Assembly: GCA_028685755.1 (NCBI GenBank)
Contig: JAQUDJ010000009.1
Coordinates: 36,549 to 49,673 of the forward strand
Length of the DNA stretch: 13,125 bases
Source: Eubacteriales bacterium
GTDB taxonomy: Bacteria; Bacillota; Clostridia; Saccharofermentanales; UBA5734
Direction of reading: 5' to 3'
Shown here: positions 25-10,083 of the stretch, one piece after another
Numbering within the stretch: position 1 is the first letter of the stretch
How the letters are laid out: each line of letters starts with the position of its first letter
The notes under the pieces: generated by a model
What the model saw: the letters and a program-made list of their open reading frames with translations, nothing else
Database searches by the model: none
What the model was told of the DNA's origin: nothing
Program-made: the position numbers and the translations under genes

Positions 25-64
25 CCGGCCGCAACTTATCTAGTGGCCGGATTTTTTATTTTTT
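25..64 (+). terminator. Probable rho-independent terminator of an upstream gene that lies outside or at the edge of the window
   Basis: All-GC stem CCGGCC (25-30) pairs with GGCCGG (45-50). It can extend by g31-t44 and c32-g43. It is followed by ATTTTTTATTTTTT (51-64). An in-frame TAA at 22-24 could be the end of the upstream CDS. Confidence 0.55.
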
Positions 65-113: not shown

Positions 114-632
114 ATGAAAAATGTAAGATTAAGTCTCGCTCTTGTCCTTATAGCCCTACTCGTCGCCGGTATCGGTTCTGCTGCTTTAAGTGTCATTAGC
201 CTCGACCGATCAGTCGAAGCTGGCGTTGTCCGCTCAGATGTTGATGCGGATGTGGCTGTCCAATTTGCTGCCCTCGGCAGTTATGGCGACAATGGTTTTG
301 TCAGTGTAGATGCCACCACCGGTGAAATTGCCTTTGATTTGAAAAAGGCTGTTTCCAATTCAGCTAATGGCGGCTGGAACACCGATGCCCATTTTGTTGT
401 CGGCAGTGCTGCTAACGGTGTCTTTGAAGTCGCCAATAATTCGGACGTTGCAGTAAAAGTTTCTTTAACGGGCGCAACGGGTGGTTTGACTCTAAAAGAT
501 TCATCAGGTGCAGCGGCTGGCTCAAGCGTCATCGAAGCAGGTAGCGCAGACTCATTCTACTTTGATATTGCGACAGCCGGTGTCAACAAAGCGACTGCAA
601 TCGGCGGAACGCTTGCAGTGCGGAATGCCTAA
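114..632 (+). CDS. Small secreted protein; putative TasA/DUF1102-like fibre subunit and substrate of the adjacent SipW-type peptidase
   Basis: GGAGA at 100-104 lies 9 nt upstream of the ATG. The N-terminus has K/R residues, then a hydrophobic h-region (LALVLIALLVAGIG) and small residues SAA. A conserved LSVISLDRSVEAGVVRSD segment follows. The mature part is rich in A/G/V/S/D with no Cys and looks beta-rich. It sits immediately upstream of a SipW-type signal peptidase. Family assignment is inference from motif and context only. Confidence 0.7.
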   Translation: MKNVRLSLALVLIALLVAGIGSAALSVISLDRSVEAGVVRSDVDADVAVQFAALGSYGDNGFVSVDATTGEIAFDLKKAVSNSANGGWNTDAHFVVGSAANGVFEVANNSDVAVKVSLTGATGGLTLKDSSGAAAGSSVIEAGSADSFYFDIATAGVNKATAIGGTLAVRNA

Positions 633-658
633 TACATAGGATTTAATCAGGACAGCAT

Positions 659-1762
659 ATGAAGAACATCCTGACTGGCGTGCTCATTGGTTTGATCATC
701 ATCTTGGCCGGATTCGGCCTCGTGGCGGCGACCAATGGCACGCCTTTCTTGACTTATGTGTATTCGGACAGCATGTCCCCCTTGATTGATGTCAACGATG
801 CTTTTTTAATCTGGCCAACAGGTCATTACGAAATCGGCGATGTCATCACCTATCGACCCAAGACATTACCTGCAACGTATATCACGCATCGAATTGTCGG
901 AAAGAATGAACGCGGCTTTCTGACTCAAGGCGATCATGCTCCTTATCAAGACCAACGTGTCGGGGAACCGCCGATCAGCGATGCGCAAATTGCCGGCGAA
1001 GTACTTTCTTTATATGGCCAACCACTAATTATTCCGCAATTAGGCACCCTCGCCGCAGGGATTGGTCAAGGTCTTGGCCCTTCGTCATCGTGGGTTGCGA
1101 TACTCCTCATCGCCGCGGGGATCATCAGCCTGATTTGGAATCGAATCATACCCTCTAAAAAGAAAAAAACGCGACTGCGCTGGCGCTTGCGCCATCTTTA
1201 CCGTCTGGTTGGCGTGATTGCAACGGTGTTAATTTTGACTAGCGTATTGGTTCTTTCTCAGGTGACTCAAGTTCGTTATCTAGTCAGTGAAAAGCCCAGT
1301 CAAGTTGTCAATCGCGTCCTGTTGAATCACCCGGGCGAACTTTCAATGACCGTGCGCAACCAGGGACTCTGGCCAGTGTGGCTCGAAGTTGCTGGAACGG
1401 GTGACACCGTTGCGACAAAAGCGAGCCGGATTGTCTGGCCGTACCAAGAGACAAAGGTCACGTTAATGGTTCCTGCTGAATCATCGACTGGCTGGTACCA
1501 ACGCTATCTACACATCAATCAATACCCGATACTTTTCCCAGAGGGGATACTCCGTTTGTTTTACCAGTTTTCGCCGGTCGCAGCATTAGTGGCCACCCTT
1601 GCAGCTTTCTGGCTCTGGTATCGAGCTTGGATCGGCTTAATCAGTCGCATTCACGGCCTTGAAGGCTGGATACCACTGAAAACCTTCCGCGATAAAATAG
1701 CGGCTCGACGTTGGCGTAATCTTCGCCGTCGGCTGATCAGCAAAAAGGAGCGTACGCTATAA
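659..1762 (+). CDS. Signal peptidase I, SipW/ER/archaeal type (S26B-like), with a ~200-aa C-terminal extension (two extra TM helices plus an ecto domain)
   Basis: There is an N-terminal TM helix. SDSMSP carries the candidate catalytic Ser (S38, nt 770-772). ITHRIV carries the candidate catalytic His (H77, nt 887-889), which is the Ser/His type rather than the Ser/Lys LepB type. TQGDHAPYQD resembles the conserved GDxN...D box. A second TM spans aa ~143-164. A poly-basic loop (KKKKTRLRWRLRHLYR) follows, then TM3, a ~100-aa predicted extracytoplasmic segment, TM4 and a basic tail. AGGA at 649-652 is the RBS. Confidence 0.85.
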   Translation: MKNILTGVLIGLIIILAGFGLVAATNGTPFLTYVYSDSMSPLIDVNDAFLIWPTGHYEIGDVITYRPKTLPATYITHRIVGKNERGFLTQGDHAPYQDQRVGEPPISDAQIAGEVLSLYGQPLIIPQLGTLAAGIGQGLGPSSSWVAILLIAAGIISLIWNRIIPSKKKKTRLRWRLRHLYRLVGVIATVLILTSVLVLSQVTQVRYLVSEKPSQVVNRVLLNHPGELSMTVRNQGLWPVWLEVAGTGDTVATKASRIVWPYQETKVTLMVPAESSTGWYQRYLHINQYPILFPEGILRLFYQFSPVAALVATLAAFWLWYRAWIGLISRIHGLEGWIPLKTFRDKIAARRWRNLRRRLISKKERTL

Positions 1763-2298
1763 TGCGTTTAAGAATCTCATTGATTTTGATCATATTAGGC
1801 CTCCTCGTCGCGCTTCTGCCATTGACGACAAGCGGTGCTATCAGCTTACTGACCGTTGACCGCTCGATTGGTGGCAACCTCACGCTTGCCGATTTACCGG
1901 GTCTAGTCGAATTACAAAACTTCGACAATCAGACATATCAGCTCACGAGTAGTTACAAAACGGTCGGGACTATAATTAACAACGCATCCCAAACCATGAA
2001 AATTAAAATGACGACAACGCTTGACGACAGTCAGATTACCAACACAAAATGGCAAATCAATGTGCGCGCAAACGGCGGCACCGCATTAACCTTTTCGCGA
2101 AGTGATAATTTGACCCAAACCACTAAGGAATTTCAAATCACTGCTGGATCCTCAAAAAGGATTGAAGCCAAAGAGAATTCAAGTGTTAATGGACAGTCTA
2201 TCGCTACCTATTCCTTTGCGATCATCAGTGCAGATGGTACTTATACCCAGACCTTAGCGGATAGTTCTAGCAATCCAATCCGACATATATTTAAATAA
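1762..2298 (+). CDS. Second small secreted protein, N-terminally paralogous to 114-632; putative minor, initiator or anchor subunit
   Basis: The ATG overlaps the peptidase TAA (TAATG at 1760-1764). AGGAG lies at 1746-1750. The signal peptide is MRLRISLILIILGLLVALLPLTTSGA, followed by ISLLTVDRSIGGNLTLAD, which aligns with the post-signal segment of the first ORF. The mature part is rich in T/S/N/Q and has no Cys. Confidence 0.7.
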   Translation: MRLRISLILIILGLLVALLPLTTSGAISLLTVDRSIGGNLTLADLPGLVELQNFDNQTYQLTSSYKTVGTIINNASQTMKIKMTTTLDDSQITNTKWQINVRANGGTALTFSRSDNLTQTTKEFQITAGSSKRIEAKENSSVNGQSIATYSFAIISADGTYTQTLADSSSNPIRHIFK

Positions 2299-2359
2299 AA
2301 CAAATAAATGAATCACAATTTGTCATTGCAGAAATTGGTCATAACAGAAGAGGAAGTGC

Positions 2360-3862
2360 ATGAAAATCATGAAGACAAAACAAATCATTCAAAAATCAAG
2401 GACGGGCTTGATTCTAATCTTACTTATTGCGAGTTTGCTTTGGACTGGCTTCATGAATTTCCCCACAAATCCGACCGCACTTGAATCAACCGTCCCAGCG
2501 GATGAAATTCTGACCTACGCACCTGAATACGACATTCAAGCAGGGCGGTCATTAATGATTTGGAAACAGGGAACCAGCTTGGAGCAGGGGCGCACGGCAT
2601 ATTTCTATGCGGCCGATCCAATTCTCACCCTAACACCTTCTTTTTCATTGACAGGCCAGGTTGCGAGTGAGTTGTCTGGAACGGTCCAAATACAAACATA
2701 TTTGCAGGCTGTTGATGACAACCATCAGCTCTATTGGAGCTATCCGCTAATCAATTCGGTTGCGCAACCTGTTAAACTGACTCATGCAATCGAAGGCCAA
2801 AACGATTTGCTTCAATTATCGGCCCGACCTTTTGCGATTCGGGTAAGCCAAGCCTTTGCCCAATTACAAGCTATCAACACCGAGCTTGACCTGACCAATG
2901 CCAATTTCGAGCTCGTTGTGCGGTCTTTTGTGAATCTGGATGGGCAATCCGATGGTCAGGTTATCGCCAAGCAGTTTATCAATGAATTGCCGATTTCCTT
3001 ACAAACGATTGGCTTTACACTACCTAAAACAGCAGATAATTTGTCGCAAATTATCCTGAAAAGCGCGCCGGTCAAGCCAACTGGATTAGCAGCTTGGACC
3101 ACCACCCCGGAAAAAATCGCTGCGCTCTTCTTAGATGGTCTATTGCTGGCGGCACTCATCTTATCGATGGTCATCAACCGGCCACGTCAGAAGGACCGGG
3201 CATTAGATCATCAGAAATTTCGAGAATGGATTACGGAGGGCAGTGTCAGTCTGCATAACAGCTCGCCGATCCAAGTCAATTCCTTAGAAGGCCTTGTTGA
3301 CTTAGCGATTGATCTCGACAAACGCGTGTTATACGACCCATCACGCCAAAAATATTTTGTCCCAGATGAAGGGATGCTCTATCTATATGACCCAAATCAG
3401 CTCAATCCATCACAGATCAAGCGCACACAACTCGGGCGGCTCCTGCTCGATGCAGGTGTTATCAGCCGTGAGCAGCTTGAGACGGCACTGTTTTATCATC
3501 AGCGGTTAAATGTACCGTTAGGTGAATCACTGATTGCATTGGGCTTTATCGAAGAAAAAAACCTGTACCAAACGTTGGCTGCCCAGGCCAAACTGCTGTA
3601 TCTCGACGCCGAGCCAGAAGATTTCCGGGTCGATACTGACGCGCTGGCGCGTCTTACAGTCAAGCAGGCGCAAATCTTACGTGTCTTGCCACTTCAACGG
3701 CAACAAGACGAAAAATTACGACTGATTTGCAGTGATCCCGGGCGCATCAAAATAAAAAATGCCCTTGAAGAAATTATCGAATCTGAAATTGAACTCGTAA
3801 TTGTCAATCCATCTGTTTTGCAGGTGGCACTCGATAAAATAAATGCCAAAACCCAAAGCTAA
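2360..3862 (+). CDS. Bitopic membrane protein: N-terminal TM, ~215-aa ectodomain, second TM, and a cytoplasmic T2SSE_N/MshEN-like domain
   Basis: GAGGA at 2350-2354 lies 5 nt before the ATG. TM1 is aa ~15-35 and TM2 is aa ~252-272 (IAALFLDGLLLAALILSMVIN), followed by RPRQKDR (positive-inside). The C-terminal ~140 aa matches the GspE/MshE N-terminal domain pattern: tandem LGxxLLxxG..L...L..Q motifs, then LPLQRQQDEKLRLICSDP, resembling the usual 'lPl...g..l.va.sdP'. The N-terminal two-TM module resembles, from memory, the DUF5305 family often found beside SipW-type peptidases; this is unverified. Confidence 0.8.
   Translation: MKIMKTKQIIQKSRTGLILILLIASLLWTGFMNFPTNPTALESTVPADEILTYAPEYDIQAGRSLMIWKQGTSLEQGRTAYFYAADPILTLTPSFSLTGQVASELSGTVQIQTYLQAVDDNHQLYWSYPLINSVAQPVKLTHAIEGQNDLLQLSARPFAIRVSQAFAQLQAINTELDLTNANFELVVRSFVNLDGQSDGQVIAKQFINELPISLQTIGFTLPKTADNLSQIILKSAPVKPTGLAAWTTTPEKIAALFLDGLLLAALILSMVINRPRQKDRALDHQKFREWITEGSVSLHNSSPIQVNSLEGLVDLAIDLDKRVLYDPSRQKYFVPDEGMLYLYDPNQLNPSQIKRTQLGRLLLDAGVISREQLETALFYHQRLNVPLGESLIALGFIEEKNLYQTLAAQAKLLYLDAEPEDFRVDTDALARLTVKQAQILRVLPLQRQQDEKLRLICSDPGRIKIKNALEEIIESEIELVIVNPSVLQVALDKINAKTQS
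3428..3586 (+). other. Tandem MshEN-type 24-aa motifs with a 5-aa spacer (candidate c-di-GMP binding site) inside CDS 2360-3862
   Basis: Motif 1 (aa 357-380) is QLGRLLLDAGVISREQLETALFYH. The spacer is QRLNV. Motif 2 (aa 386-409) is PLGESLIALGFIEEKNLYQTLAAQ. The published consensus is RLGxx[LVI][LVI]xxG[LVI][LVI]xxxxLxxxLxxQ. Deviations: the leading Arg is Gln in motif 1 and Pro in motif 2; the final Q of motif 1 is H; and one F sits at an LVI position. Confidence 0.65.
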
Positions 3863-5055
3863 TCTACTTCGACTTCAACGGGAATACTTGGGATTGGCAC
3901 GAGAATATCAACGTCAGCAGCGTAATCAACACCAGGCATTTGGAAACCAAACATCTGGTAAAAATCTTCCCAATAGCCGGTGATGTCGCAGTATTCTGTG
4001 ACATTTTCGGTTCTTACATTCGGCCAGATGTTATCAACTGCCTGTTGAATGGCAGGCTCCATTTCCCAGTCATCGACGCGGAGTCGGCCGGCTTCATCCA
4101 CGATCGGATTTTCAACAAACAACTTATCCTGATAAAGGCGAGCAATTTGTTCAATGCAGCCCTCGTGTGTTCCGGCGGCTTTCATAACCTTGTACAGAAT
4201 TGAAATATAAAGCGGGACAACCGGAATGGCGGCACTCGCTTGAGTCACAAGGGCCTTGTTCACGGAAATATATGCGGTGACATGTTGCATGTCACGGGTC
4301 ATTTTTTGCGCAGTCGCATGAAGGTGTTCTTTGGCGCGGCCAATCGAACCCTTGAGGTAGATCGGATGCGTCAGTTCTGGTCCAAGGTAGGAGTAGGCCA
4401 TGGTTACTGTGTGATCAGCCAAACAACCAGCTTGATCAAGGGCAACAACCCAATCCTGCCAATCTTCACCCCCCATGACTTTCACAGTAGCTTCGATTTC
4501 TTCAGGAGACGCCGCGGAAATGCTGACCATCGAAATGGAGTTATCCTTGAGATCGATTGAACGATTGGTATATTCACCATCCGTTGATTTGAGTACCGAA
4601 TTGTAAATCGTACCGTCAGCCATCGTCCGCCGAGGGGAAGCCAAGCTATAGACGATTAGGTCTACTTGACCGAGATCTTGCTTGATCAGATTGATCACTT
4701 GATCTTTGACTTCTTGGGAGAACGCATCGCCATTGATTGTTTTGGCGTAAAGGCCTTCTTGGTTGGCGCGTTGTTCAAATGCTGCTGAATTATACCAGCC
4801 AGCAGATGCTGTACGATTACCAGAGGCCGGTTTATCAAAGATAACGCCGATTGTTGCAGCGCCACAGGAAAAGGCGGAAGTAATGCGGGAGGCTAAACCA
4901 TAGCCAGTCGAAGCACCGAGGACGAGGACTTTTTTTGGGCCATCGACTTTAGGTTGCGCGAGAACATAATCGATCTGGCGGTTAACATTGGCGGCACAAC
5001 CGACCGGGTGTGCGGTGATGCAGATAAAGCCACGGGTTTTTGGTTCAACAATCAT
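3859..5055 (-). CDS. fabV: FabV-type enoyl-[acyl-carrier-protein] reductase / trans-2-enoyl-CoA reductase (NADH), Ter family
   Basis: The 398-aa protein starts MIVEPKTRGFICITAHPVGC, with the nucleotide-binding motif VLGASTGYGLASRI. The Y-x8-K catalytic spacing is present in IYLKGSIGRAKEHL. Length and both termini are typical of the FabV/Ter family. GGAGGA (plus-strand tcctcc at 5064-5069) lies 8 nt upstream of the ATG. Confidence 0.9.
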   Translation of the reverse strand: MIVEPKTRGFICITAHPVGCAANVNRQIDYVLAQPKVDGPKKVLVLGASTGYGLASRITSAFSCGAATIGVIFDKPASGNRTASAGWYNSAAFEQRANQEGLYAKTINGDAFSQEVKDQVINLIKQDLGQVDLIVYSLASPRRTMADGTIYNSVLKSTDGEYTNRSIDLKDNSISMVSISAASPEEIEATVKVMGGEDWQDWVVALDQAGCLADHTVTMAYSYLGPELTHPIYLKGSIGRAKEHLHATAQKMTRDMQHVTAYISVNKALVTQASAAIPVVPLYISILYKVMKAAGTHEGCIEQIARLYQDKLFVENPIVDEAGRLRVDDWEMEPAIQQAVDNIWPNVRTENVTEYCDITGYWEDFYQMFGFQMPGVDYAADVDILVPIPSIPVEVEVD

Positions 5056-5246: not shown

Positions 5247-6206
5247 ATGACTAGGCGCAACCCATTGCGAAACCTGCCAGCTTTAGCCAAAGGTAAATTA
5301 TCAGCACTTTGGATAATGCTCCGCGATAAACTGCGCCGCGATTGGCCTGCGGTTCTGTTTTTGACCCCCAGTATGATTGGCACCGGATTGTTTTTCTTTA
5401 TTCCCTTTATATTAGTCATCGGCTACTCGCTCGTTGATAATCCTGTCATGATGCGTTTTGTTTTTTTGCGCAACTATGTCGATCTCCTCACAAATCAGGC
5501 CTATTTACAGGCAGCAGGCAACACCTTGCTTTTTTCACTGATTAGCTTGCCACTTGTCGTGGTTATGTCCTTATTGCTCGCGATGCTGCTGAACGGAAAA
5601 CTCAAAGCCAAAAGTGCTTTGCGGTCACTTTTTCTATCGCCCCTGCTTGTGCCAGTAGCGTCGGTTGTGCTTGTTTGGCAAGTTGTGTTTAGTTATCATG
5701 GCGCTTTAAATTCAACACTATCCGGCTGGACGTGGCTCGTTGACTCGGGTTGGCTACCGGTCGATTGGCTCAAAAGCAGCAATGCGCGATACGTGATCAT
5801 TGGACTCTATTTGTGGAAAAATCTTGGCTATAACATGGTGCTTTTTCTCGCTGCATTAAACAATGTCCCGTCCCACTTAACTGATTCGGCGCGGGTCGAT
5901 GGCGCAACTGCTTGGCAACGTTTTATGAGCATAACGCTGCGATTCATCACGCCGACCTTGTTATTTACGACGATCATATCCTTTATCAACTCATTCAAAG
6001 TTTTCCGAGAAACTTATTTGTTAGCGGGTGATTACCCCTACGATGTGCTCTATATGCTCCAACATTTTATGAACAACATGTTCCGCTCACTCGATTATCA
6101 GAAATTATCCGCTGCGGCGATTGTCATGGCCCTTGTCATGATTGGGATCATAGGCGCTTTGTTTATCGTTGAAACCCGATCGGGCAAAGATCTGGAGGAC
6201 AACTGA
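5247..6206 (+). CDS. Carbohydrate (CUT1-type) ABC transporter permease, MalF/UgpA-like
   Basis: The N-terminus WPAVLFLTPSMIGTGLFFFIPF is typical of this family. There are six predicted TM segments. The EAA loop is DSARVDGATAWQRFMSITLRFITP. The start is uncertain because the weak GGAG lies 13 nt upstream; an internal Met at aa 24 is an alternative. Confidence 0.88.
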   Translation: MTRRNPLRNLPALAKGKLSALWIMLRDKLRRDWPAVLFLTPSMIGTGLFFFIPFILVIGYSLVDNPVMMRFVFLRNYVDLLTNQAYLQAAGNTLLFSLISLPLVVVMSLLLAMLLNGKLKAKSALRSLFLSPLLVPVASVVLVWQVVFSYHGALNSTLSGWTWLVDSGWLPVDWLKSSNARYVIIGLYLWKNLGYNMVLFLAALNNVPSHLTDSARVDGATAWQRFMSITLRFITPTLLFTTIISFINSFKVFRETYLLAGDYPYDVLYMLQHFMNNMFRSLDYQKLSAAAIVMALVMIGIIGALFIVETRSGKDLEDN

Positions 6207-7129
6207 TGCATCCCGCAAACAAGTGGCGCCGCGCCAAACGCGAAACACCAATCTATCTCAAAACCGGCTTAATCCTAATCCTCGCACTGATCTTTGTTTT
6301 TCCAATCGTGATGACCATTCTCAATTCATTCATGTCATCGGATGAGATTGTCGCCAATTACGGCATGCTTTTCGACAAAAACACAGATCCCTGGGCGATG
6401 CCCACCGCGCCTGAATTGCCCTGGATTTCGCCATCTGCCCACTTTAAACTGATCCCAGACCTCGTATCCGTGCAACAATATGTTGAGATTCTTTTTAAAA
6501 GTACAGATTATTTGATTAAATTCTGGAACTCCGTTTTTCTGGTGCTTCCGATAGTCGCCGGGCAGATATTTATAGGTGCGCTTGCGGCTTATGGGTTCAC
6601 TCGCTTCCGTGGTCGGATTGCCCAACTGATTTTCTTTTCGTACATCATATTGATGTTGATGCCCTTTCAGGTCACACTCGTGCCCAATTATTTAGTTGCA
6701 GAATGGTTTGGTCTGCTTGACAACCCACTATCGATCATCCTGCCAGGCGTTTTCTCGACATTTAGTGTCTTTTTGCTGACCAAATACATGCGCCGGATCC
6801 CACGTGATTATTTAGAAGTTGCTCAACTCGATGGTGCCGGCCATTGGGCCATTTTCACCCAAATCATGCTGCCGATGTGTAAAACCGCCCTCTATTCCTT
6901 GGCGGTACTCGTGTTTATTGATTACTGGAACATGGTTGAGCAACCGATAATTTTCTTATCCGATCCGCTCAAGCATCCGTTGTCTGTCTTTCTCGTTAAA
7001 GTCAATGAAGGCGATATTGGTCTAGCCTTTGCGGCATCCACACTTTACATGATACCGGCGCTCCTCATGTTCTTTCATGGTGAACAGTACCTCGTTGAGG
7101 GCATTACACATTCTGGTTTGAAAGGATAA
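6206..7129 (+). CDS. Carbohydrate (CUT1-type) ABC transporter permease, MalG/UgpE-like
   Basis: The start overlaps the upstream stop by 1 nt (TGATG). GGAGGA lies at 6194-6199. The EAA loop is EVAQLDGAGHWAIFTQIMLPMCKTAL, and the N-terminus FVFPIVMTILNSF is typical. The first extracytoplasmic loop is enlarged (aa ~45-105). Confidence 0.88.
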   Translation: MHPANKWRRAKRETPIYLKTGLILILALIFVFPIVMTILNSFMSSDEIVANYGMLFDKNTDPWAMPTAPELPWISPSAHFKLIPDLVSVQQYVEILFKSTDYLIKFWNSVFLVLPIVAGQIFIGALAAYGFTRFRGRIAQLIFFSYIILMLMPFQVTLVPNYLVAEWFGLLDNPLSIILPGVFSTFSVFLLTKYMRRIPRDYLEVAQLDGAGHWAIFTQIMLPMCKTALYSLAVLVFIDYWNMVEQPIIFLSDPLKHPLSVFLVKVNEGDIGLAFAASTLYMIPALLMFFHGEQYLVEGITHSGLKG

Positions 7130-7132
7130 CCC

Positions 7133-8719
7133 ATGGACGATTATACACCGACAAAAGCAAGCCCCCGCACGCGCCTTGTCAGGCGTGCTACGGTCATTTT
7201 TTTTAGTGGCATGGCGGCGCTGACCTTGTTCTCCAATACAATTGTCAATTACTCCTTGCCGCGCGTACAGGTTAAAAATTTTGAATCAGGGATCATCTCG
7301 CGCCAAATTCAGACCGACGGTACAGTTGCCGCCTCATTACAACACACGATCAATTTCGGTGCGGCGCGGACTGTCGAAAAGGTCAATGTCGAAGTGGGGT
7401 CACCGGTCTTAGTTGGGGATGTGCTCGCGACCTTGAAAGCAACCGATGGATTAGAACTTTTGGAGATGGAAAAGGCATATGAAAATGCCCAGATCGATCT
7501 CGCGCGCATGAAAGAAACGGCGGCGACGACATCCGTCCCAGCCGCGGAAAAAGCAATCCAAGCCGCGGAAAAAGCGATCGCGGTCGCGTTGAAAACAATC
7601 ACTCGGAATGAGGAAGCTATTGTTGACGCAAAAGAAGCATTAGATACGGCTTGGGATGATCTTAAACAAGCGGCTGAGGATGCTGAAGACGATTTAAATG
7701 ATGCCCAAGACCTTCAAGAAGAAAAAGAAGATCTTTTAGTGGCCGCCCAACTGGCTCTGGACACAACAACAGAAACGCCGGGTACCACTGCATACATCGC
7801 GCTACAAGACGCAGTGACAGCTGCTGAACTTGCCCTTGAAGATGCGCAAGATTCAGTCGATTCATTCGAAAAAATCTTAGCTGATGCAAAAAAGGCTCGA
7901 GATCGAGGTCCGACAAGCTTTGAAGATAGTGTCGTTTTAGCCGAAGAAGCGTTAGTTGCTGCAAAAGAAGCACACATAGAAACTGTAGCTGCGCTTGCCC
8001 AAGCTCAACTTGATCTCACTGCGGCCAAGAAAACAGACGCACAGACCGCGAAAGATCGCACACGTGAGATCACCAAAGCAGAGAATAATCTGACCATTCA
8101 GAAGAAGAAACTTGATCAATTCAAATCAACGCAAGATGTCACTGAAATCAAGGCTGATTATGCTGGTCGCATTTCCAAATTGACGCTATCTGCTGGTGGC
8201 GTCATTAATCCGGCTGAAGCGATTGTGACGATTGATGCTGCCGACGCTAAATATGAATTGCGCGCCACACTGCCAATCGAGCAGGCAAAGGTACTTGTCA
8301 TCGGCGATCGTGCCGATGTGATGATGGGTAATATGGGCTGGGCGCAAGCTGTCTTGCGCGAAGTCCGTGAAGACAAAGATCAGCCAGGGATCGTTAAGCA
8401 GCTAATCTTTGATATTGATGGCGAGGTTACACTCGGCCAACAGGTTACGTTAAGTATTTATAAAATGAGTCGGCAGTACGATATCATCGTGCCCAATGCC
8501 GCGGTTCGTCAAGACGCGAATGGCAGCTTTATCCTCGTGATGAAGCAAAAAAATGGTCCACTCGGCAGCCGTTTCACTTTAGAGCGAGTCAGTGCAACCG
8601 TGCTCGAATCAGATAGCACGCGTGCTGCAGTCAGTGCAACAATTGACTATGGAACACCTCTCGTGACAGCCGCCAATAAGCCGGTAGAAGCCGGCAGTCG
8701 CGTTTTGCCAACCAAATGA
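7133..8719 (+). CDS. HlyD-family membrane-fusion protein (periplasmic adaptor subunit) with an exceptionally long coiled-coil hairpin
   Basis: AGGA lies at 7123-7126. There is an N-terminal TM (VIFFSGMAALTLFSNTIV). The lipoyl half-motifs are VEVGSPVLVGDVLATL and ADYAGRISKLTLSAGGVINPAEAIVTI. About 240 aa (aa ~100-345) are A/E/D/K/L-rich and heptad-like. The C-terminal beta-barrel/MP-type segments include IIVPNAAVRQDANGSFILVMK and LVTAANKPVEAGSRV. Confidence 0.85.
   Translation: MDDYTPTKASPRTRLVRRATVIFFSGMAALTLFSNTIVNYSLPRVQVKNFESGIISRQIQTDGTVAASLQHTINFGAARTVEKVNVEVGSPVLVGDVLATLKATDGLELLEMEKAYENAQIDLARMKETAATTSVPAAEKAIQAAEKAIAVALKTITRNEEAIVDAKEALDTAWDDLKQAAEDAEDDLNDAQDLQEEKEDLLVAAQLALDTTTETPGTTAYIALQDAVTAAELALEDAQDSVDSFEKILADAKKARDRGPTSFEDSVVLAEEALVAAKEAHIETVAALAQAQLDLTAAKKTDAQTAKDRTREITKAENNLTIQKKKLDQFKSTQDVTEIKADYAGRISKLTLSAGGVINPAEAIVTIDAADAKYELRATLPIEQAKVLVIGDRADVMMGNMGWAQAVLREVREDKDQPGIVKQLIFDIDGEVTLGQQVTLSIYKMSRQYDIIVPNAAVRQDANGSFILVMKQKNGPLGSRFTLERVSATVLESDSTRAAVSATIDYGTPLVTAANKPVEAGSRVLPTK
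7541..7582 (+). repeat. Tandem 2 x 21-nt direct repeat inside the MFP coiled coil (AAEKAIQ / AAEKAIA)
   Basis: gccgcggaaaaagcaatccaa (7541-7561) is followed by gccgcggaaaaagcgatcgcg (7562-7582). The first 18 nt differ at one position. The period of 21 nt equals one heptad. Confidence 0.8.
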
Positions 8720-10083
8720 AACGACTTGCGCTGCTCGCAGCTGTGCTTTGGACAACGACCGCCTTGTTGACCCAGGCGCTTGTGTTTACTGCACAGGGCC
8801 TCCTTTCAGAAACCACGCGCGACAATCAGGTCAAGACTTTTGCCGTCTATTTAGCGAAACCGGTGCCAAGCAATTCGGGTTCAACAGCCGGTTTTATTGC
8901 TGGATCAACAGCAGCCAAAGTGGCTGCTGCAGGCTTTACGAGCGATAGTGGGATCGGTTTGCAAGCGCGGGCAGTCGAAAGCATGCGACAATCTCTCAAG
9001 AAAGCGATTGCTGAACAACAAGTGCAAATAGTCGATGCATTTGCGGGCTTTTCTGAACAAGTGCTGACACGCGTTTCAATGGACAATCAAAGCAACGGCA
9101 CGATCACGGTGAATCTCACCGGAATCGGTGGGCGATTTGCCGATTTTCGCCAATTGCAGATTTTAAGTGGTTCGTTTATCAATGAACAAGATTGGAATGA
9201 ACGGTCAATCGTTCTCGATGAAACCGCGGCTTGGCAATTGTTTGGGGCGATCGATATTGCGGGTATGACGTTATCGATCCAGAACCACAATTACACCGTC
9301 AATGGAGTCGTGCGAATCCCTCAAAACGATCAGAATTTACTCGCTATCGCTGAGAAACCGCAAGCCTTTGTCAGTTATGCGGCGCTACACGCGCTAGATC
9401 CCCAATCGAGCATCACGGCATATGAGGTCAGACTGCCTGAACCAGTACCCGGTATGGGTCAAAGTTATTTTAATGATGCACTCAATGCCGGAGGGCTCAA
9501 CCCTAATGATGCGATCATCGTTCTGCACGAACAGCGTTTAACCTTCACCCACTTACTGGCAGATTGGGCAAAGATCGGGCGCCGAGCCATACAAGATTCG
9601 ACCATTGTCTTGCCCTGGTGGGAAAATGCGAACCGGGCTGCCGCTGATTGGGCTAGTGTGCTCATCGCCATATCAGGCATGGCGTTGCTTTTGCTGGGTT
9701 TAAGTGTTTCCAACTTGACTTGGCGGGAACAAAAAGTTCGACCAGCTCGTCCAATATGTTGGACACAAATCGGACAATTGAGCGCCGCCAGTCTGTTCGG
9801 CCTCGTGCTAGCGATGATTTTGATCCATGTGCACGGCGAGCTTGTTCCAAGTGGTTGGTCTTGGTTTTTCACCTTGCTTGGGATTTTACTTTTGCCTGCA
9901 GCACTCGTTACTGGTTTCGGAGGATTTCAGAAACTTCGAATCGTGTTACCAGATAAGACGCGTAGCCTTCAGGTTTTGCGATCAACCAGTCAATCTATAA
10001 CCGAAAAGACCCGTATTTACATACTTGTTTGGATCAAATGGCTGAAGTCGCACTGGCCAGCCACAAAGGAGACCCCCTTATGA
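8716..10083 (+). CDS. MacB-periplasmic-domain / FtsX-like ABC permease homologue with a divergent C-terminal TM bundle
   Basis: An ATGA overlap joins it to the MFP stop. It has an N-terminal TM and an A/G/S-rich linker. The MacB_PCD-like core is ITVNLTGIGGRFADFRQLQILSGSFINEQDWNERSIVLDETAAWQLFGAIDIAGMTLSIQNHNYTVNGVVR. Three C-terminal TM helices follow in FtsX-like topology, but the usual ER.rEIG..(K/R)alGA loop is not recognisable. No SD precedes the start, so translational coupling is presumed. Confidence 0.6.
   Translation: MKRLALLAAVLWTTTALLTQALVFTAQGLLSETTRDNQVKTFAVYLAKPVPSNSGSTAGFIAGSTAAKVAAAGFTSDSGIGLQARAVESMRQSLKKAIAEQQVQIVDAFAGFSEQVLTRVSMDNQSNGTITVNLTGIGGRFADFRQLQILSGSFINEQDWNERSIVLDETAAWQLFGAIDIAGMTLSIQNHNYTVNGVVRIPQNDQNLLAIAEKPQAFVSYAALHALDPQSSITAYEVRLPEPVPGMGQSYFNDALNAGGLNPNDAIIVLHEQRLTFTHLLADWAKIGRRAIQDSTIVLPWWENANRAAADWASVLIAISGMALLLLGLSVSNLTWREQKVRPARPICWTQIGQLSAASLFGLVLAMILIHVHGELVPSGWSWFFTLLGILLLPAALVTGFGGFQKLRIVLPDKTRSLQVLRSTSQSITEKTRIYILVWIKWLKSHWPATKETPL

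What the first reader, a model, noticed from the sequence alone, without database searches (positions are those of the whole stretch)
114..3862. Uncharacterised SipW-centred four-gene module resembling a TasA/TapA/SipW extracellular fibre operon
A Ser/His (SipW/ER-type) signal peptidase is flanked on both sides by small Cys-free secreted proteins, and a dedicated bitopic membrane protein follows.
- The four genes are separated by 26 nt, a 1-nt overlap and 61 nt, and none of these gaps contains a terminator.
- In Bacillus subtilis, tapA-sipW-tasA uses exactly this logic: a dedicated SipW processes a major and a minor fibre subunit.
- TasA-like subunits next to SipW-type peptidases also occur in archaea (bundling pili), where they polymerise by donor-strand complementation.
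- The two subunits here are much shorter than TasA (~145-150 aa mature) and lack the camelysin/M73-type N-terminal motif. Their DRS-containing N-termini instead recall archaeal DUF1102-type proteins.
- The fourth gene has no counterpart in the Bacillus operon.

Together this looks like a distinct, undescribed fibre or matrix assembly system.
Basis: partly seen in the sequence, partly recalled or inferred. Interest (0 to 1): 0.82.

Follow-up and report, generated by a model that had tools for sequence, protein, structure and literature searches.

The report
Bacterial Tafi-like pilus operon, c-di-GMP sensor
This is a conserved four-gene operon in a Clostridia-type bacterium that most likely builds a thin surface fibre of the kind recently found in archaea (Tafi / TasA superfamily); what looks new is that its membrane helper protein carries a receptor domain for the biofilm signal cyclic di-GMP.

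Summary
In detail: four co-directional, tightly packed genes (114-3862) lie between an upstream terminator and a convergent fabV gene.

- **Gene content.** The genes encode a small acidic secreted protein (g1), an archaeal/ER-type Ser/His signal peptidase with four membrane segments (g2), a second small secreted protein (g3, a distant paralogue of g1), and a two-TM DUF5305 protein (g4).
- **Conservation.** All four genes occur together in 22 of 27 related bacterial loci (25 distinct, mostly Bacillota MAGs), 19 of them in the window's order. The other five loci are cut by a contig end.
- **Not undescribed.** g2 and g4 are clear homologues of TafD and TafG of archaeal Tafi loci. The g1 family connects by profile to DUF1102-type pilins, the subunits of the archaeal "taf-like" clusters published in 2025.
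- **Relation to TasA.** No Pfam family, camelysin/M73 included, matches g1 or g3, and there is no TapA.
- **Not tested.** Donor-strand polymerisation itself was not tested. The g1 model is only moderate (pLDDT 69), and its best PDB match, the AbpA bundling pilin, is weak.
- **What looks new.** In this Bacillota branch the cytoplasmic end of DUF5305 is fused to an MshEN c-di-GMP receptor domain (TM 0.80 to MshE-c-di-GMP). It is the most conserved part of the protein and is absent from the haloarchaeal and high-GC homologues examined.

This suggests post-translational c-di-GMP gating of pilin processing or assembly. I rate it a new variant of a known kind.

The parts
25..64 (+). Intrinsic-terminator-like hairpin (8-bp GC-rich stem, 25-50) plus U-run (51-64). 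It probably ends the upstream gene and marks the 5' boundary of the module.
   Evidence: sequence. MFE -15.7 kcal/mol, z -2.57. The scanner missed it; its loop limit is 3-8 nt and this loop is 10 nt.
114..632 (+). g1: candidate major pilin. Sec signal peptide aa 1-24 (nt 114-185), with inferred cleavage GSAA|LS. Conserved N-terminal segment aa 25-45 (nt 186-248, LSVISLDRSVEAG...) is the putative donor strand. Beta-sandwich core aa 49-171. The mature protein is 148 aa, pI 4.3, with no Cys.
   Evidence: A23, R32, D42 and others invariant. AF2 pLDDT 68.6, residues 18-43 below 50, strands from residue 49; top PDB hit is the AbpA bundling pilin 7ueg, E 0.026, prob 0.82; link to DUF1102, hhalign 98.8%; the N-terminal segment is the most conserved part; pI.
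659..1762 (+). g2: dedicated TafD-type signal peptidase I (ER/archaeal Ser/His type). TM1 aa 4-22; catalytic domain about aa 27-120 (S38 = nt 770-772, H77 = nt 887-889); TM2 146-164; basic cytoplasmic loop; TM3 184-202; second outside domain about aa 205-296; weaker TM4 about aa 297-318; basic C-terminal tail.
   Evidence: TIGR02228 1.1e-16, 61.1 bits vs cut-off 51.85. TM segments; S38, M39, P41, H77, R78, G91, D92, D98 at least 95% conserved in 29 aligned sequences, three of them haloarchaeal; 29% identity to a haloarchaeal TafD-like protein over residues 27-306, E 6e-31. TM4 hydropathy 1.5.
1762..2298 (+). g3: second, minor pilin-like subunit, translationally coupled to g2 (TAATG). Signal peptide aa 1-26 (nt 1762-1839), inferred cleavage TSGA|IS. 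Carries the same N-terminal motif (ISLLTVDRSIGG). The mature protein is 152 aa, pI 8.2, with a conserved C-terminal D(S/T)xxxP(R)Rxxx(Y/K) tail.
   Evidence: only itself found by the word-indexed search; homologues in 25 related loci; hhalign of the g1 vs g3 families, prob 96.9%, E 1.9e-10 over 139 columns; alignment and pI.
2360..3862 (+). g4: TafG-like DUF5305 membrane protein fused to an MshEN domain. TM1 aa 3-33; outside beta-sandwich aa 49-234; TM2 aa 250-273; conserved cytoplasmic alpha/beta domain aa 277-343. The Pfam DUF5305 match covers aa 156-343 (nt 2825-3388).
   Evidence: PF17231 8.3e-25. AF2 pLDDT 88.2; 25% identity to a haloarchaeal TafG-like protein over residues 78-357, E 6e-16; 71 homologues, most annotated DUF5305 plus MshEN.
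3419..3856 (+). MshEN (T2SSE_N / GSPII) c-di-GMP receptor domain of g4, aa 354-499. The 53-residue tandem binding motif is aa 357-409 (nt 3428-3586): QLGRLLLDAGVISREQLETALFYH-QRLNV-PLGESLIALGFIEEKNLYQTLAAQ.
   Evidence: PF05157 2.6e-9. NF053729 c-di-GMP motif 1e-14, 54 bits vs cut-off 38; 5HTL MshE 2.2e-12 over residues 354-482. Foldseek 5htl_B E 2.8e-9, TMt 0.80, rmsd 2.7 A, 34% identity; the motif is the most conserved region; G11, L25, G40, L54 and Q61 equivalents are 63/63.

Best explanation
The module is a bacterial (Bacillota) version of the archaeal 'taf-like' surface-fibre cluster, which belongs to the TasA superfamily of donor-strand-complemented filaments.

**Proposed mechanism**
- g1 (major, acidic) and g3 (minor, basic) are exported by Sec as precursors. 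Their conserved motif (G-S/G-A-A | L/I-S-x-h-x-h-D-R-S-V/I) lies directly after the signal peptide.
- The dedicated four-TM, two-domain Ser/His signal peptidase g2 (TafD-like) works with the DUF5305 membrane protein g4 (TafG-like). g2 cuts after the small residues and frees an N-terminal beta-strand.
- That strand inserts into the incomplete beta-sandwich of the neighbouring subunit, giving a g1 polymer that g3 nucleates, adapts or terminates.
- Particular to this branch, the cytoplasmic end of g4 carries an MshEN domain that binds c-di-GMP. I propose it couples pilin processing or assembly to the cell's c-di-GMP level, a post-translational switch for attachment or biofilm.

**Shown here**
- Gene order and its conservation.
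- Peptidase type and catalytic residues.
- Homology of g2 to TafD-like and of g4 to TafG-like proteins.
- Homology between g1 and g3, and between the g1 family and DUF1102-like proteins.
- MshEN fold and motif conservation.

**Inferred**
- The cleavage site, donor-strand polymerisation, the roles of g1 versus g3, c-di-GMP binding, and what that binding controls.
For: **Synteny**
- All four genes are found together in 22 of 27 related bacterial loci (25 distinct). 19 have the window's order g1-g2-g3-g4, two have g1-g3-g2-g4, and one (L003) is rearranged with extra g1 copies. The other five are cut by a contig end.
- Nothing else in the flanks is conserved beyond regulators.

**g2 (peptidase)**
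- TIGR02228 scores above its cut-off.
- S38, H77, R78, D92 and D98 are at least 95% conserved.
- g2 aligns to a haloarchaeal TafD-like protein through both outside domains, E 6e-31. The 4-TM layout matches the published TafD.

**g4 (DUF5305)**
- Pfam DUF5305 scores 8e-25. g4 aligns to a haloarchaeal TafG-like protein at E 6e-16.
- The literature places DUF5305 next to the signal peptidase in Tafi, taf-like and AbpX loci, sometimes fused to it.

**g1 and g3 (subunits)**
- The two families are paralogues: hhalign 96.9%.
- The g1 profile finds only 87 proteins among 1.84 billion representatives. The tail of that list contains Pfam-DUF1102 proteins. hhalign of g1 against them gives 98.8%, E 8.6e-17.
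- A profile of those same DUF1102-like proteins hits Tat-type pilin ORFs beside TafD/TafG in a haloarchaeal locus at 3e-23. These ORFs carry the motif GTGAF..(D/N)R.
- In the g1 AF2 model the post-signal segment (residues 18-43) is unstructured and is followed by a beta-sandwich. Its best PDB match is the AbpA bundling pilin, with the Sulfolobus thread subunit ranked fifth.
- The N-terminal segment is the most conserved part of g1.

**MshEN domain**
- Supported by Pfam, NCBIfam, PDB sequence search and Foldseek.
- All hydrophobic and Gly ligand-contact positions are kept, and the motif is the most conserved part of the family.
- Per PMC5013675 these positions dominate affinity, while changes at the polar residues alter it less than 5-fold.
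- GGDEF proteins lie within 7 kb in 6 of 27 loci.
Against: - No oligomer model or coordinates were available, so the donor-strand groove was never seen.
- The g1 model is only moderate (pLDDT 68.6). No PDB fold match reaches E <= 0.001: AbpA gives E 0.026 and TM 0.36.
- Pfam DUF1102 and Peptidase_M73 do not hit g1 or g3 directly. The sequence profile finds no solved pilin in the PDB, only spurious designer-propeller repeats.
- No tip or adhesin (TafC-like) gene and no anchor gene is visible in the window, and none is conserved in related loci.
- In the window's g4, three of the four polar motif positions differ from MshE: R9 to Q357, Q32 to H380, R38 to P386. Q at the first position is the family norm, 53 of 63. 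Binding affinity could therefore be lowered.
- No GGDEF, EAL or HD-GYP gene lies in the window, and no c-di-GMP riboswitch was found.
- The function of DUF5305/TafG is itself only a literature hypothesis.
Confidence: 0.62

Rival explanations
1. It is a dedicated secretion and maturation module for two monomeric cell-surface or matrix proteins. A private signal peptidase and its helper process them, but no donor-strand fibre forms. The beta-sandwich proteins act as adhesins, wall-associated coat proteins or a non-filamentous matrix.
For: The only direct structural evidence is a moderate monomer model and weak fold matches. No tip or anchor gene was found. Private SipW-type peptidases also process non-fibre substrates (own knowledge).
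Against: The subunits are homologous to DUF1102-type proteins. In archaeal TafD/TafG clusters these are modelled as donor-strand oligomers, and their haloarchaeal relatives form filaments solved by cryo-EM (PMC11821415; PMC12337348). The strongly conserved post-cleavage N-terminal strand is shared by g1, g3 and the archaeal pilins. Residues 18-43 are not part of the folded core in the model.
Confidence: 0.2
2. The fibre system is real, but the MshEN domain of g4 is a degenerate, non-binding GSPII-type module, as in XpsE. It would serve as a protein-protein docking or structural domain, so the system would not be c-di-GMP controlled.
For: Q replaces the Arg9 equivalent in 53 of 63 family members. 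The window's protein additionally has H for Q32 and P for R38. GSPII domains that do not bind c-di-GMP exist, such as XpsE (2d27/2d28) and PilB-N bound to PilZ. No c-di-GMP enzyme gene is present in the window.
Against: Every hydrophobic and Gly contact residue that dominates affinity is retained, most at 62-63 of 63 (G18 equivalent 50/63, L29 equivalent 59/63). The score exceeds the curated cut-off of NCBIfam's c-di-GMP motif model. The closest structures are the ligand-bound MshE and PilF GSPII-B, not XpsE. The motif is the most conserved region of the protein. GGDEF genes are neighbours in 6 of 27 loci.
Confidence: 0.25
3. It is a TasA/TapA/SipW operon proper, that is, a divergent orthologue of the Bacillus biofilm fibre system.
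For: It has a SipW-like ER-type peptidase and two secreted subunits. The literature places TasA and Tafi in one superfamily.
Against: No Pfam family, Peptidase_M73/camelysin included, matches g1 or g3 at E <= 1. There is no TapA. The peptidase has the four-TM, two-domain TafD architecture and pairs with DUF5305, which Bacillus lacks. The nearest sequence relatives of the subunits are DUF1102-like proteins, not TasA.
Confidence: 0.05

Closest known systems
Tafi (Tat-fimbriae) loci of haloarchaea and the Sec-dependent 'taf-like' clusters of Thermococcus, Pyrococcus and Archaeoglobus (TafD signal peptidase, TafG DUF5305, DUF1102-type pilins; PMC11821415, PMC12337348)
   Same: The four-TM, two-domain Ser/His signal peptidase is homologous over both outside domains. 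The adjacent DUF5305 protein is homologous. Both have two or more beta-sandwich subunits of 150-200 aa with a conserved G-x-G/A-A|F/L...(D/N/E)R N-terminus. The subunits use Sec signal peptides, as in the non-halophilic archaeal clusters.
   Different: This module is bacterial (Clostridia-type MAGs). It has only four genes, with no TafC-like tip, TafF-like anchor or TafB regulator seen. The subunits do not reach Pfam DUF1102 directly. g4 has an extra C-terminal MshEN c-di-GMP domain that the haloarchaeal homologues examined lack.
Bacillus subtilis tapA-sipW-tasA biofilm fibre operon
   Same: It uses the same logic: a private ER-type signal peptidase encoded between or next to a major and a minor secreted subunit. 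It belongs to the same superfamily according to the literature.
   Different: There is no TasA/camelysin (M73) domain and no TapA. The peptidase is a larger four-TM TafD type. A DUF5305-MshEN partner is present that Bacillus lacks. The subunits are about 100 aa shorter.
AbpX / AbpA bundling-pilus loci (archaea and some Bacillota/Chloroflexota; bioRxiv 10.64898/2026.01.04.697558; PDB 7UEG)
   Same: Both have a signal peptidase I, a DUF5305 accessory and acidic small beta-sandwich subunits. c-di-GMP enzymes are noted near the bacterial loci. AbpA is the best PDB fold match of g1.
   Different: The AbpX-associated peptidase is reported to have ten TM helices, whereas g2 has four. [quoted passage not shown] No SLH or LPXTG anchor genes are present here.
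MshEN-domain c-di-GMP effectors (MshE and PilB/PilF pilus ATPases; NfrB glycosyltransferase; PMC5013675, PMC8669469)
   Same: g4 shares the domain, fold and 53-residue tandem motif. As in those systems, the domain is attached to machinery that makes an extracellular polymer.
   Different: The output partner is not an ATPase or glycosyltransferase but a DUF5305 membrane protein paired with a signal peptidase. The domain sits at the C-terminus. Gln replaces the first Arg of motif I.

Membership tests
Taf-like cluster (TafD + TafG + DUF1102-type pilins) | TafD-type signal peptidase I: Ser/His(/Arg) catalytic residues, four TM helices and a second extracytoplasmic domain | tested here: met
   TIGR02228 scores above its cut-off. 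S38, H77 and R78 are at least 95% conserved. Three clear TM segments plus one weaker one. 29% identity over residues 27-306 to a haloarchaeal TafD-like protein, E 6e-31.
Taf-like cluster (TafD + TafG + DUF1102-type pilins) | Adjacent DUF5305 (TafG) membrane protein | tested here: met
   PF17231 8.3e-25, 87.9 bits vs cut-off 29. E 6e-16 to a haloarchaeal TafG-like protein. Adjacent to the peptidase gene in every locus that retains one; two loci cut by a contig end retain no peptidase gene.
Taf-like cluster (TafD + TafG + DUF1102-type pilins) | Two or more secreted DUF1102-type subunits of 150-200 aa | tested here: inconclusive
   Pfam DUF1102 does not hit g1 or g3. However, the g1 profile retrieves proteins that match Pfam DUF1102: P0165 scores 30 bits against a cut-off of 22.2, and P0166 scores 21.7, just below it. 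hhalign gives 98.8%. g1 is therefore a homologue but falls outside the Pfam model.
Taf-like cluster (TafD + TafG + DUF1102-type pilins) | Tip/initiator (TafC-like, about 300 aa) and anchor/terminator (TafF-like) subunits | tested here: not met
   None is present in the window, and no such gene is conserved in the flanks of the 27 loci. Only 113 nt upstream of g1 are visible. Some relatives have longer g1-like proteins nearby or elsewhere. g3 may fill one of these roles.
Taf-like cluster (TafD + TafG + DUF1102-type pilins) | Filament assembled by N-terminal donor-strand complementation | not testable with these tools
   Only monomer prediction was allowed. The post-signal N-terminal segment is left unstructured in the g1 model.
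TasA/TapA/SipW operon | TasA-family (Peptidase_M73/camelysin) major subunit | tested here: not met
   No Pfam family, Peptidase_M73 included, matches g1 or g3 at E <= 1. No PDB TasA hit by sequence and none in the listed top 50 Foldseek matches.
TasA/TapA/SipW operon | SipW-type (ER-type, Ser/His) signal peptidase in the operon | tested here: met
   The architecture is TafD-like rather than SipW-like.
TasA/TapA/SipW operon | TapA accessory/nucleator protein | not tested
   No direct comparison with TapA was run. g3 (178 aa) matches no Pfam family at E < 0.1, and its own family is a distant paralogue of g1.
MshEN c-di-GMP receptor domain | MshEN/T2SSE_N domain with the MshE-like fold | tested here: met
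   PF05157 2.6e-9. PDB 5HTL 2.2e-12. Foldseek TMt 0.80, rmsd 2.7 A.
MshEN c-di-GMP receptor domain | Tandem 24-residue motifs RLGxx(L/V/I)(L/V/I)xxG(L/V/I)(L/V/I)xxxxLxxxLxxQ separated by 5 residues | tested here: inconclusive
   The spacing and all Leu/Gly positions are met, and NF053729 scores 54 bits vs cut-off 38. The polar positions differ in the window protein: Q357, H380 and P386 replace R9, Q32 and R38. Only Q409 (the Q61 equivalent) is kept.
MshEN c-di-GMP receptor domain | Binds c-di-GMP | not testable with these tools
   Needs ITC or DRaCALA on g4 aa 274-500.
AbpX-type loci | [quoted passage not shown] | tested here: not met
   g2 has about 4 TM segments. The inferred mature g1 N-terminus is LSVISLDRS.

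The most novel reading that the evidence does not exclude
In a branch of Bacillota, donor-strand fibre assembly is gated after translation by c-di-GMP. The gate is an MshEN receptor fused to the DUF5305/TafG partner of a dedicated signal peptidase. Ligand binding in the cytoplasm would switch pilin signal-peptide cleavage, and hence release of the donor strand, on the outside. This would be the first second-messenger-controlled signal-peptidase complex. It would also give the first functional handle on what DUF5305/TafG does in Tafi, AbpX and TasA-like systems of both domains.
Probability: 0.4. Interest if true: 0.75.

Novelty: new variant of a known kind. Interest (0 to 1): 0.58.

Why it matters
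TasA-superfamily donor-strand fibres (TasA, AbpA, AbpX, Tafi, Sulfolobus threads) have only been recognised since 2022-2026 as a cross-domain biofilm scaffold. How they are assembled at a cytoplasmic membrane, without a chaperone or usher, is open, and the role of DUF5305/TafG is a guess.

- **Minimal module.** This window shows a self-contained four-gene bacterial version: two pilins, a TafD-like peptidase and a TafG-like protein.
[quoted passage not shown] This argues that DUF5305 is a regulatory or transducing subunit of the peptidase-assembly platform.
- **Cheap experiments.** It suggests direct tests: c-di-GMP binding, motif mutants, and cleavage or fibre read-outs.
- **Wider reach of c-di-GMP.** It would add a new output class, protein-fibre processing in Gram-positives, to c-di-GMP signalling.

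Tried and rejected
- **Direct family searches of g1 and g3.** Pfam and NCBIfam gave nothing at E < 0.05, and no DUF1102, Peptidase_M73 or SipW-cognate signal model matched.
- **Single-sequence PDB searches of g1 and g3.** Nothing meaningful.
- **Profile of 33 g1 homologues against PDB sequences.** The apparently strong hits (Cake and Bagel designer propellers, down to E 5e-17) are artefacts. A 35-residue stretch is summed over 8-9 identical repeats, and each individual match has E >= 9. Rejected.
- **Word-indexed homology search for g3.** It found only itself. Homologues had to be recovered from neighbouring ORFs in related loci.
- **Look-up of the window's own contig.** Tried in order to see upstream genes; nothing on record.
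- **Rfam scan for c-di-GMP riboswitches or other RNAs.** Covered the window and 9 related loci; no match.
- **Search for conserved extra genes (tip, anchor, sortase) in the flanks of the 27 loci.** None found. Only response regulators (7 loci), GGDEF proteins (6) and histidine kinases (5) recur.
- **Literature search for a link between MshEN and DUF5305, TasA or signal peptidase.** No relevant paper.

Full report
**1. The observation**

The window holds four + strand ORFs exactly as described:

| Gene | Coordinates | Length |
|---|---|---|
| g1 | 114..632 | 172 aa |
| g2 | 659..1762 | 367 aa |
| g3 | 1762..2298 | 178 aa |
| g4 | 2360..3862 | 500 aa |

- The gaps are 26 nt, a 1-nt TAATG overlap and 61 nt.
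- The consensus scan finds no terminator-like site on the + strand within 114-3862.
- Just upstream, nt 25-50 form an 8-bp GC-rich hairpin followed by AUUUUUUAUUUUUU (dG -15.7 kcal/mol, z -2.6). This is most simply the terminator of the preceding gene.
- At the 3' end the g4 stop codon abuts the stop of a convergent FabV enoyl reductase gene (3859..5055 on the - strand).
- The four genes therefore look like one self-contained transcription unit.
- g1 and g3 have no cysteine and a single N-terminal hydrophobic segment.

**2. Is it more than chance?**

A motif-plus-tblastn scan of one genome per species (185,579 species) with the g4 family returned 30 loci. phmmer of the four window proteins against all ORFs of those loci gave the following.

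- Of the 27 bacterial loci, mostly Bacillota MAGs, 22 contain homologues of all four genes. Five are cut by a contig end, and L015 and L022 look like near-duplicates.
- The lineages include Oscillospiraceae, Herbinix, Mobilitalea, Lachnoclostridium, Peptococcaceae, Erysipelotrichaceae, Mageeibacillus and unclassified Clostridia.
- 19 loci have the window's order g1-g2-g3-g4. Two have g1-g3-g2-g4. One (L003) is rearranged around extra g1 copies, and another locus also has extra copies.
- Clustering of all flanking ORFs shows no other conserved gene. Only response regulators (7 loci), GGDEF proteins (6) and histidine kinases (5) recur.
- One high-GC bacterial MAG (L028, labelled Mycobacterium leprae; it may be mis-binned) has the same four-gene order. 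Three haloarchaeal loci share only the g2-g4 pair.

**3. The peptidase (g2)**

- g2 passes the curated threshold of TIGR02228, the archaeal/ER-type signal peptidase I (61.1 vs 51.85 bits).
- In an alignment of 29 sequences, including three haloarchaeal ones, S38 (SMxP), H77-R78, G91-D92 and D98 are at least 95% conserved.
- It is not SipW-shaped, however. It has TM segments at 4-22, 146-164 and 184-202, and a weaker one near 297-318. A poly-basic cytoplasmic loop and tail are present, and a second outside domain spans roughly 205-296.
- It aligns at 29% identity over residues 27-306, through both outside domains, with the peptidase of a Haloarculaceae locus (E 6e-31).
- This is the architecture published for TafD of Haloarcula hispanica Tafi: four TM helices, two extracytoplasmic domains, and Ser/His/Arg catalytic residues (PMC11821415).

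**4. The fourth gene (g4)**

- Pfam assigns DUF5305 (8.3e-25, aa 156-343) and MshEN (2.6e-9). NCBIfam assigns the MshE-related c-di-GMP-binding motif model NF053729 (1e-14, 54 bits vs cut-off 38).
- DUF5305 is TafG of Tafi loci. It is the "signal-peptidase accessory" found beside the peptidase in taf-like clusters of Thermococcus, Pyrococcus and Archaeoglobus and in AbpX loci, and is sometimes fused to the peptidase.
- g4 aligns with the haloarchaeal TafG-like neighbour of the TafD-like gene (25% over residues 78-357, E 6e-16).
- A 63-sequence AF2 model is confident (pLDDT 88.2). Its parts are:
  - helix 3-33 (TM1);
  - beta-sandwich 49-234 (outside);
  - helix 250-273 (TM2);
  - a small alpha/beta domain 277-343 (cytoplasmic, very conserved: W290, I291, G294, L309, G311-D314, A316-D318, R322);
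  - a helical-plus-alpha/beta domain 358-499.
- g4 is therefore a two-TM protein with a large cytoplasmic portion, not simply bitopic.

**5. The MshEN domain**

- Residues 354-482 align with V. cholerae MshE(1-145) (PDB 5HTL, E 2.2e-12).
- Foldseek places the c-di-GMP complexes of MshE (E 2.8e-9, TMt 0.80, rmsd 2.7 A, 34% identity) and of Thermus PilF GSPII-B at the top. The non-binding XpsE domains rank lower.
- Mapped on the published 53-residue motif (PMC5013675), the window protein reads QLGRLLLDAGVISREQLETALFYH / QRLNV / PLGESLIALGFIEEKNLYQTLAAQ.
- All Leu/Gly contact positions (L10, G11, G18, L25, L29, L39, G40, G47, L54, L58) and Q61 are present.
- Across 63 homologues, the G11, L25, G40, L54 and Q61 equivalents are 63/63. 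This motif is the most conserved stretch of the protein, with mean pairwise column identity 0.71 against 0.33 for the outside domain.
- The deviations are at polar positions. R9 becomes Q in 53 of 63 homologues. In the window's short subgroup, Q32 becomes H and R38 becomes P.
- The MshEN paper reports that hydrophobic substitutions cost more than 10-fold in affinity and G11/G40 substitutions abolish binding. Changes at Arg9, Asp12 and Gln32 alter affinity no more than about 5-fold.
- c-di-GMP binding is thus likely but unproven.
- The DUF5305 proteins of the haloarchaeal loci and of L028 stop after DUF5305. Among the loci examined, the fusion is therefore confined to the Bacillota branch. That fits what I know of c-di-GMP being a bacterial messenger.
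- Most family members are about 650 aa, with a further 150-aa helical C-terminal extension. The window's protein, P0002 and P0039 are natural short forms.

**6. The small proteins (g1, g3)**

- No Pfam or NCBIfam model matches either one with any confidence, and DUF1102, Peptidase_M73/camelysin and the SipW-cognate signal model are not among the weak hits. There is no useful PDB sequence hit.
- g1 has 9 relatives in the word-indexed search, and g3 finds only itself. Neighbour-gene recovery nevertheless gives g1 relatives in 23 loci and g3 relatives in 25.
- The two families are distant paralogues: hhalign 96.9%, E 1.9e-10 over 139 columns.
- They share a signature directly after the hydrophobic core. 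In g1 it is ...G-S-A-A-L-S-x-h-S-h-D-R-S/T-V-x-A-G. In g3 it is ...S-G/A-A-L/I-S-x-x-x-h-D/E/N-R.
- In g1 this segment (aa 21-45) is the most conserved part of the protein (0.56 vs 0.41).
- A full HMMER scan of 1.84 billion representative proteins with the g1 profile finds only 87 proteins at E <= 1e-3. The family is small.
- Its weakest members include P0165 and P0166, which match Pfam DUF1102 (30.0 and 21.7 bits; cut-off 22.2). They carry the same N-terminal signature (ATGAFSTVKAERNV, GTGALDVFSAERDV).
- Profile-profile comparison of 33 g1 homologues with four such proteins gives 98.8%, E 8.6e-17 over 165 columns.
- A profile of those same four DUF1102-like proteins hits, at 3e-23 and 6e-22, Tat-signal ORFs (RRKV...GTGAFDAVSANRT) lying beside the TafD/TafG genes in a haloarchaeal locus. 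The g3 profile touches them weakly (2e-4).
- The published mature N-terminus of TafA, determined by MS, is Phe30, upstream of the SignalP-predicted site. By analogy I place cleavage at GSAA|L25 in g1 and TSGA|I27 in g3. This is an inference.

**7. Structure of g1**

- With 9 sequences, AF2 gives pLDDT 68.6 and pTM 0.62.
- The model has a signal-peptide helix, an unstructured low-confidence stretch at 18-43, and then a nine-strand beta-sandwich at 49-171.
- No Foldseek match against 350,542 PDB chains reaches E <= 0.001. The best is AbpA, the donor-strand bundling pilin of Pyrobaculum (7ueg_A, E 0.026, prob 0.82, full-length alignment). The Sulfolobus thread subunit (7pnb_A) is fifth.
- This is suggestive, not proof.
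- Mature g1 is acidic (pI 4.3), as reported for AbpX and Tafi subunits. g3 is basic (pI 8.2) with a conserved C-terminal ...D(S/T)xxxP(R)Rxxx(Y/K) tail.
- g1 is the first gene and is duplicated in some genomes. g3 is translationally coupled to the peptidase gene. I therefore read g1 as the major subunit and g3 as a minor one (adapter, nucleator or terminator). This too is an inference.

**8. Mechanism proposed**

- Sec exports pre-g1 and pre-g3.
- The TafD-like peptidase, paired in the membrane with the TafG-like g4, cleaves after the small residues. This releases the N-terminal strand that had been held at the membrane.
- That strand completes the sandwich of a neighbouring subunit, giving a g1 fibre that contains g3.
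- Donor-strand polymerisation needs no ATP, so the natural control point is cleavage or hand-over at this platform.
- The MshEN domain on the cytoplasmic side of g4 would make that step depend on c-di-GMP. The signal would be relayed through the conserved 277-343 domain and the two TM helices.
- This is analogous to MshE/PilB for type IV pili, and to NfrB or BcsA for exopolysaccharides.
- Shown here: the homologies, the domain organisation and the conservation. Inferred: everything about polymerisation, ligand binding and gating.
- GGDEF genes within 7 kb in 6 of 27 related loci fit the idea, as does the AbpX preprint's remark that bacterial AbpX neighbourhoods encode DGCs and HD-GYPs. Neither proves it.
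- No c-di-GMP riboswitch was found.

**9. Comparison with the known, and novelty**

- It matches the taf-like cluster on peptidase type, the DUF5305 partner and DUF1102-like subunits. It lacks recognisable tip and anchor genes and is bacterial.
- It differs from AbpX loci, which have a ten-TM peptidase and an aromatic/acidic donor-strand signature.
- "Undescribed" is therefore too strong. The class has been in the literature since 2023-2026, and DUF5305 proteins in bacteria are mentioned there.
- What I could not find in 8 million papers and preprints is any mention of the DUF5305-MshEN fusion, or of c-di-GMP acting on a signal-peptidase or donor-strand fibre platform.
- The database annotation of the window's own protein is just "DUF5305 family protein [Eubacteriales bacterium]".
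- Verdict: a new variant of a known kind, with a specific testable regulatory twist.

**10. Scores**

It stays well above ordinary because of the conserved c-di-GMP receptor on the least-understood component.
- Confidence in the overall explanation is about 0.62. By component:

| Claim | Confidence |
|---|---|
| g2 and g4 are homologues of TafD and TafG | about 0.95 |
| g1/g3 are related to DUF1102-type subunits | about 0.85 |
| A donor-strand fibre forms | about 0.6 |
| g4 binds c-di-GMP | about 0.65 |
| c-di-GMP gates processing or assembly | about 0.4 |

Noticed in passing
window 25-64 (+): A GC-rich 8-bp hairpin with a 10-nt loop followed by AUUUUUUAUUUUUU. It is probably the intrinsic terminator of the gene upstream of the window. 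The consensus scanner missed it; its loop limit is 3-8 nt.
   Followed up: yes
window 5247-12449 (+): An odd-looking transporter cluster: two binding-protein-dependent ABC permeases, an HlyD-like membrane-fusion protein (528 aa, long coiled coil), a MacB-periplasmic-core-domain protein with no FtsX hit reported at E <= 0.001 (455 aa), and an 806-aa solute-binding protein with a roughly 390-aa N-terminal extension. No ATPase gene lies in the window. It is unrelated to the finding.
   Followed up: partly
L020 13620-14804 (-); L008 9350-10138 (+); proteins P0091, P0098, P0107, P0153: Some relatives encode longer proteins (262-589 aa) with an N-terminal g1-like pilin domain followed by a Pro/acidic linker and a large C-terminal domain without a Pfam match. 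They may be tip or adhesin subunits of the same fibre. One sits directly downstream of g4 in L008.
   Followed up: partly
L003 2764-6276; L008 3985-5206: The g1 gene is present in two or three tandem or dispersed copies in some Oscillospiraceae and Peptococcaceae MAGs. Two of the L003 copies score almost identically against g1. This is consistent with g1 being the major, variable subunit.
   Followed up: no
g4 homologues, alignment A1 columns ~545-725: Most DUF5305-MshEN proteins are about 650 aa and carry an extra conserved helical C-terminal extension of about 150 aa (consensus ...SYYRG...ANYLT...) with no Pfam match. The window's protein and two others are natural short forms that lack it.
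   Followed up: partly
L031 6719-8317: In one haloarchaeal TafG-like protein the conserved cytoplasmic DUF5305 sub-domain (WIT...LEGLVDLAID...) appears twice in tandem, at the position where the Bacillota proteins carry MshEN.
   Followed up: no
L028 (record titled Mycobacterium leprae MAG): A high-GC contig carries the same g1-g2-g3-g4 order with a DUF5305 protein lacking MshEN. The taxonomic label may be a mis-binning. It shows that the four-gene core predates or is independent of the MshEN fusion.
   Followed up: partly
L015 / L022 3573-4673 (-): A GGDEF-LuxR(GerE) fusion protein is encoded divergently, immediately upstream of g1, in two Erysipelotrichaceae-type loci. It is a possible local c-di-GMP source or transcription regulator for the module.
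   Followed up: no
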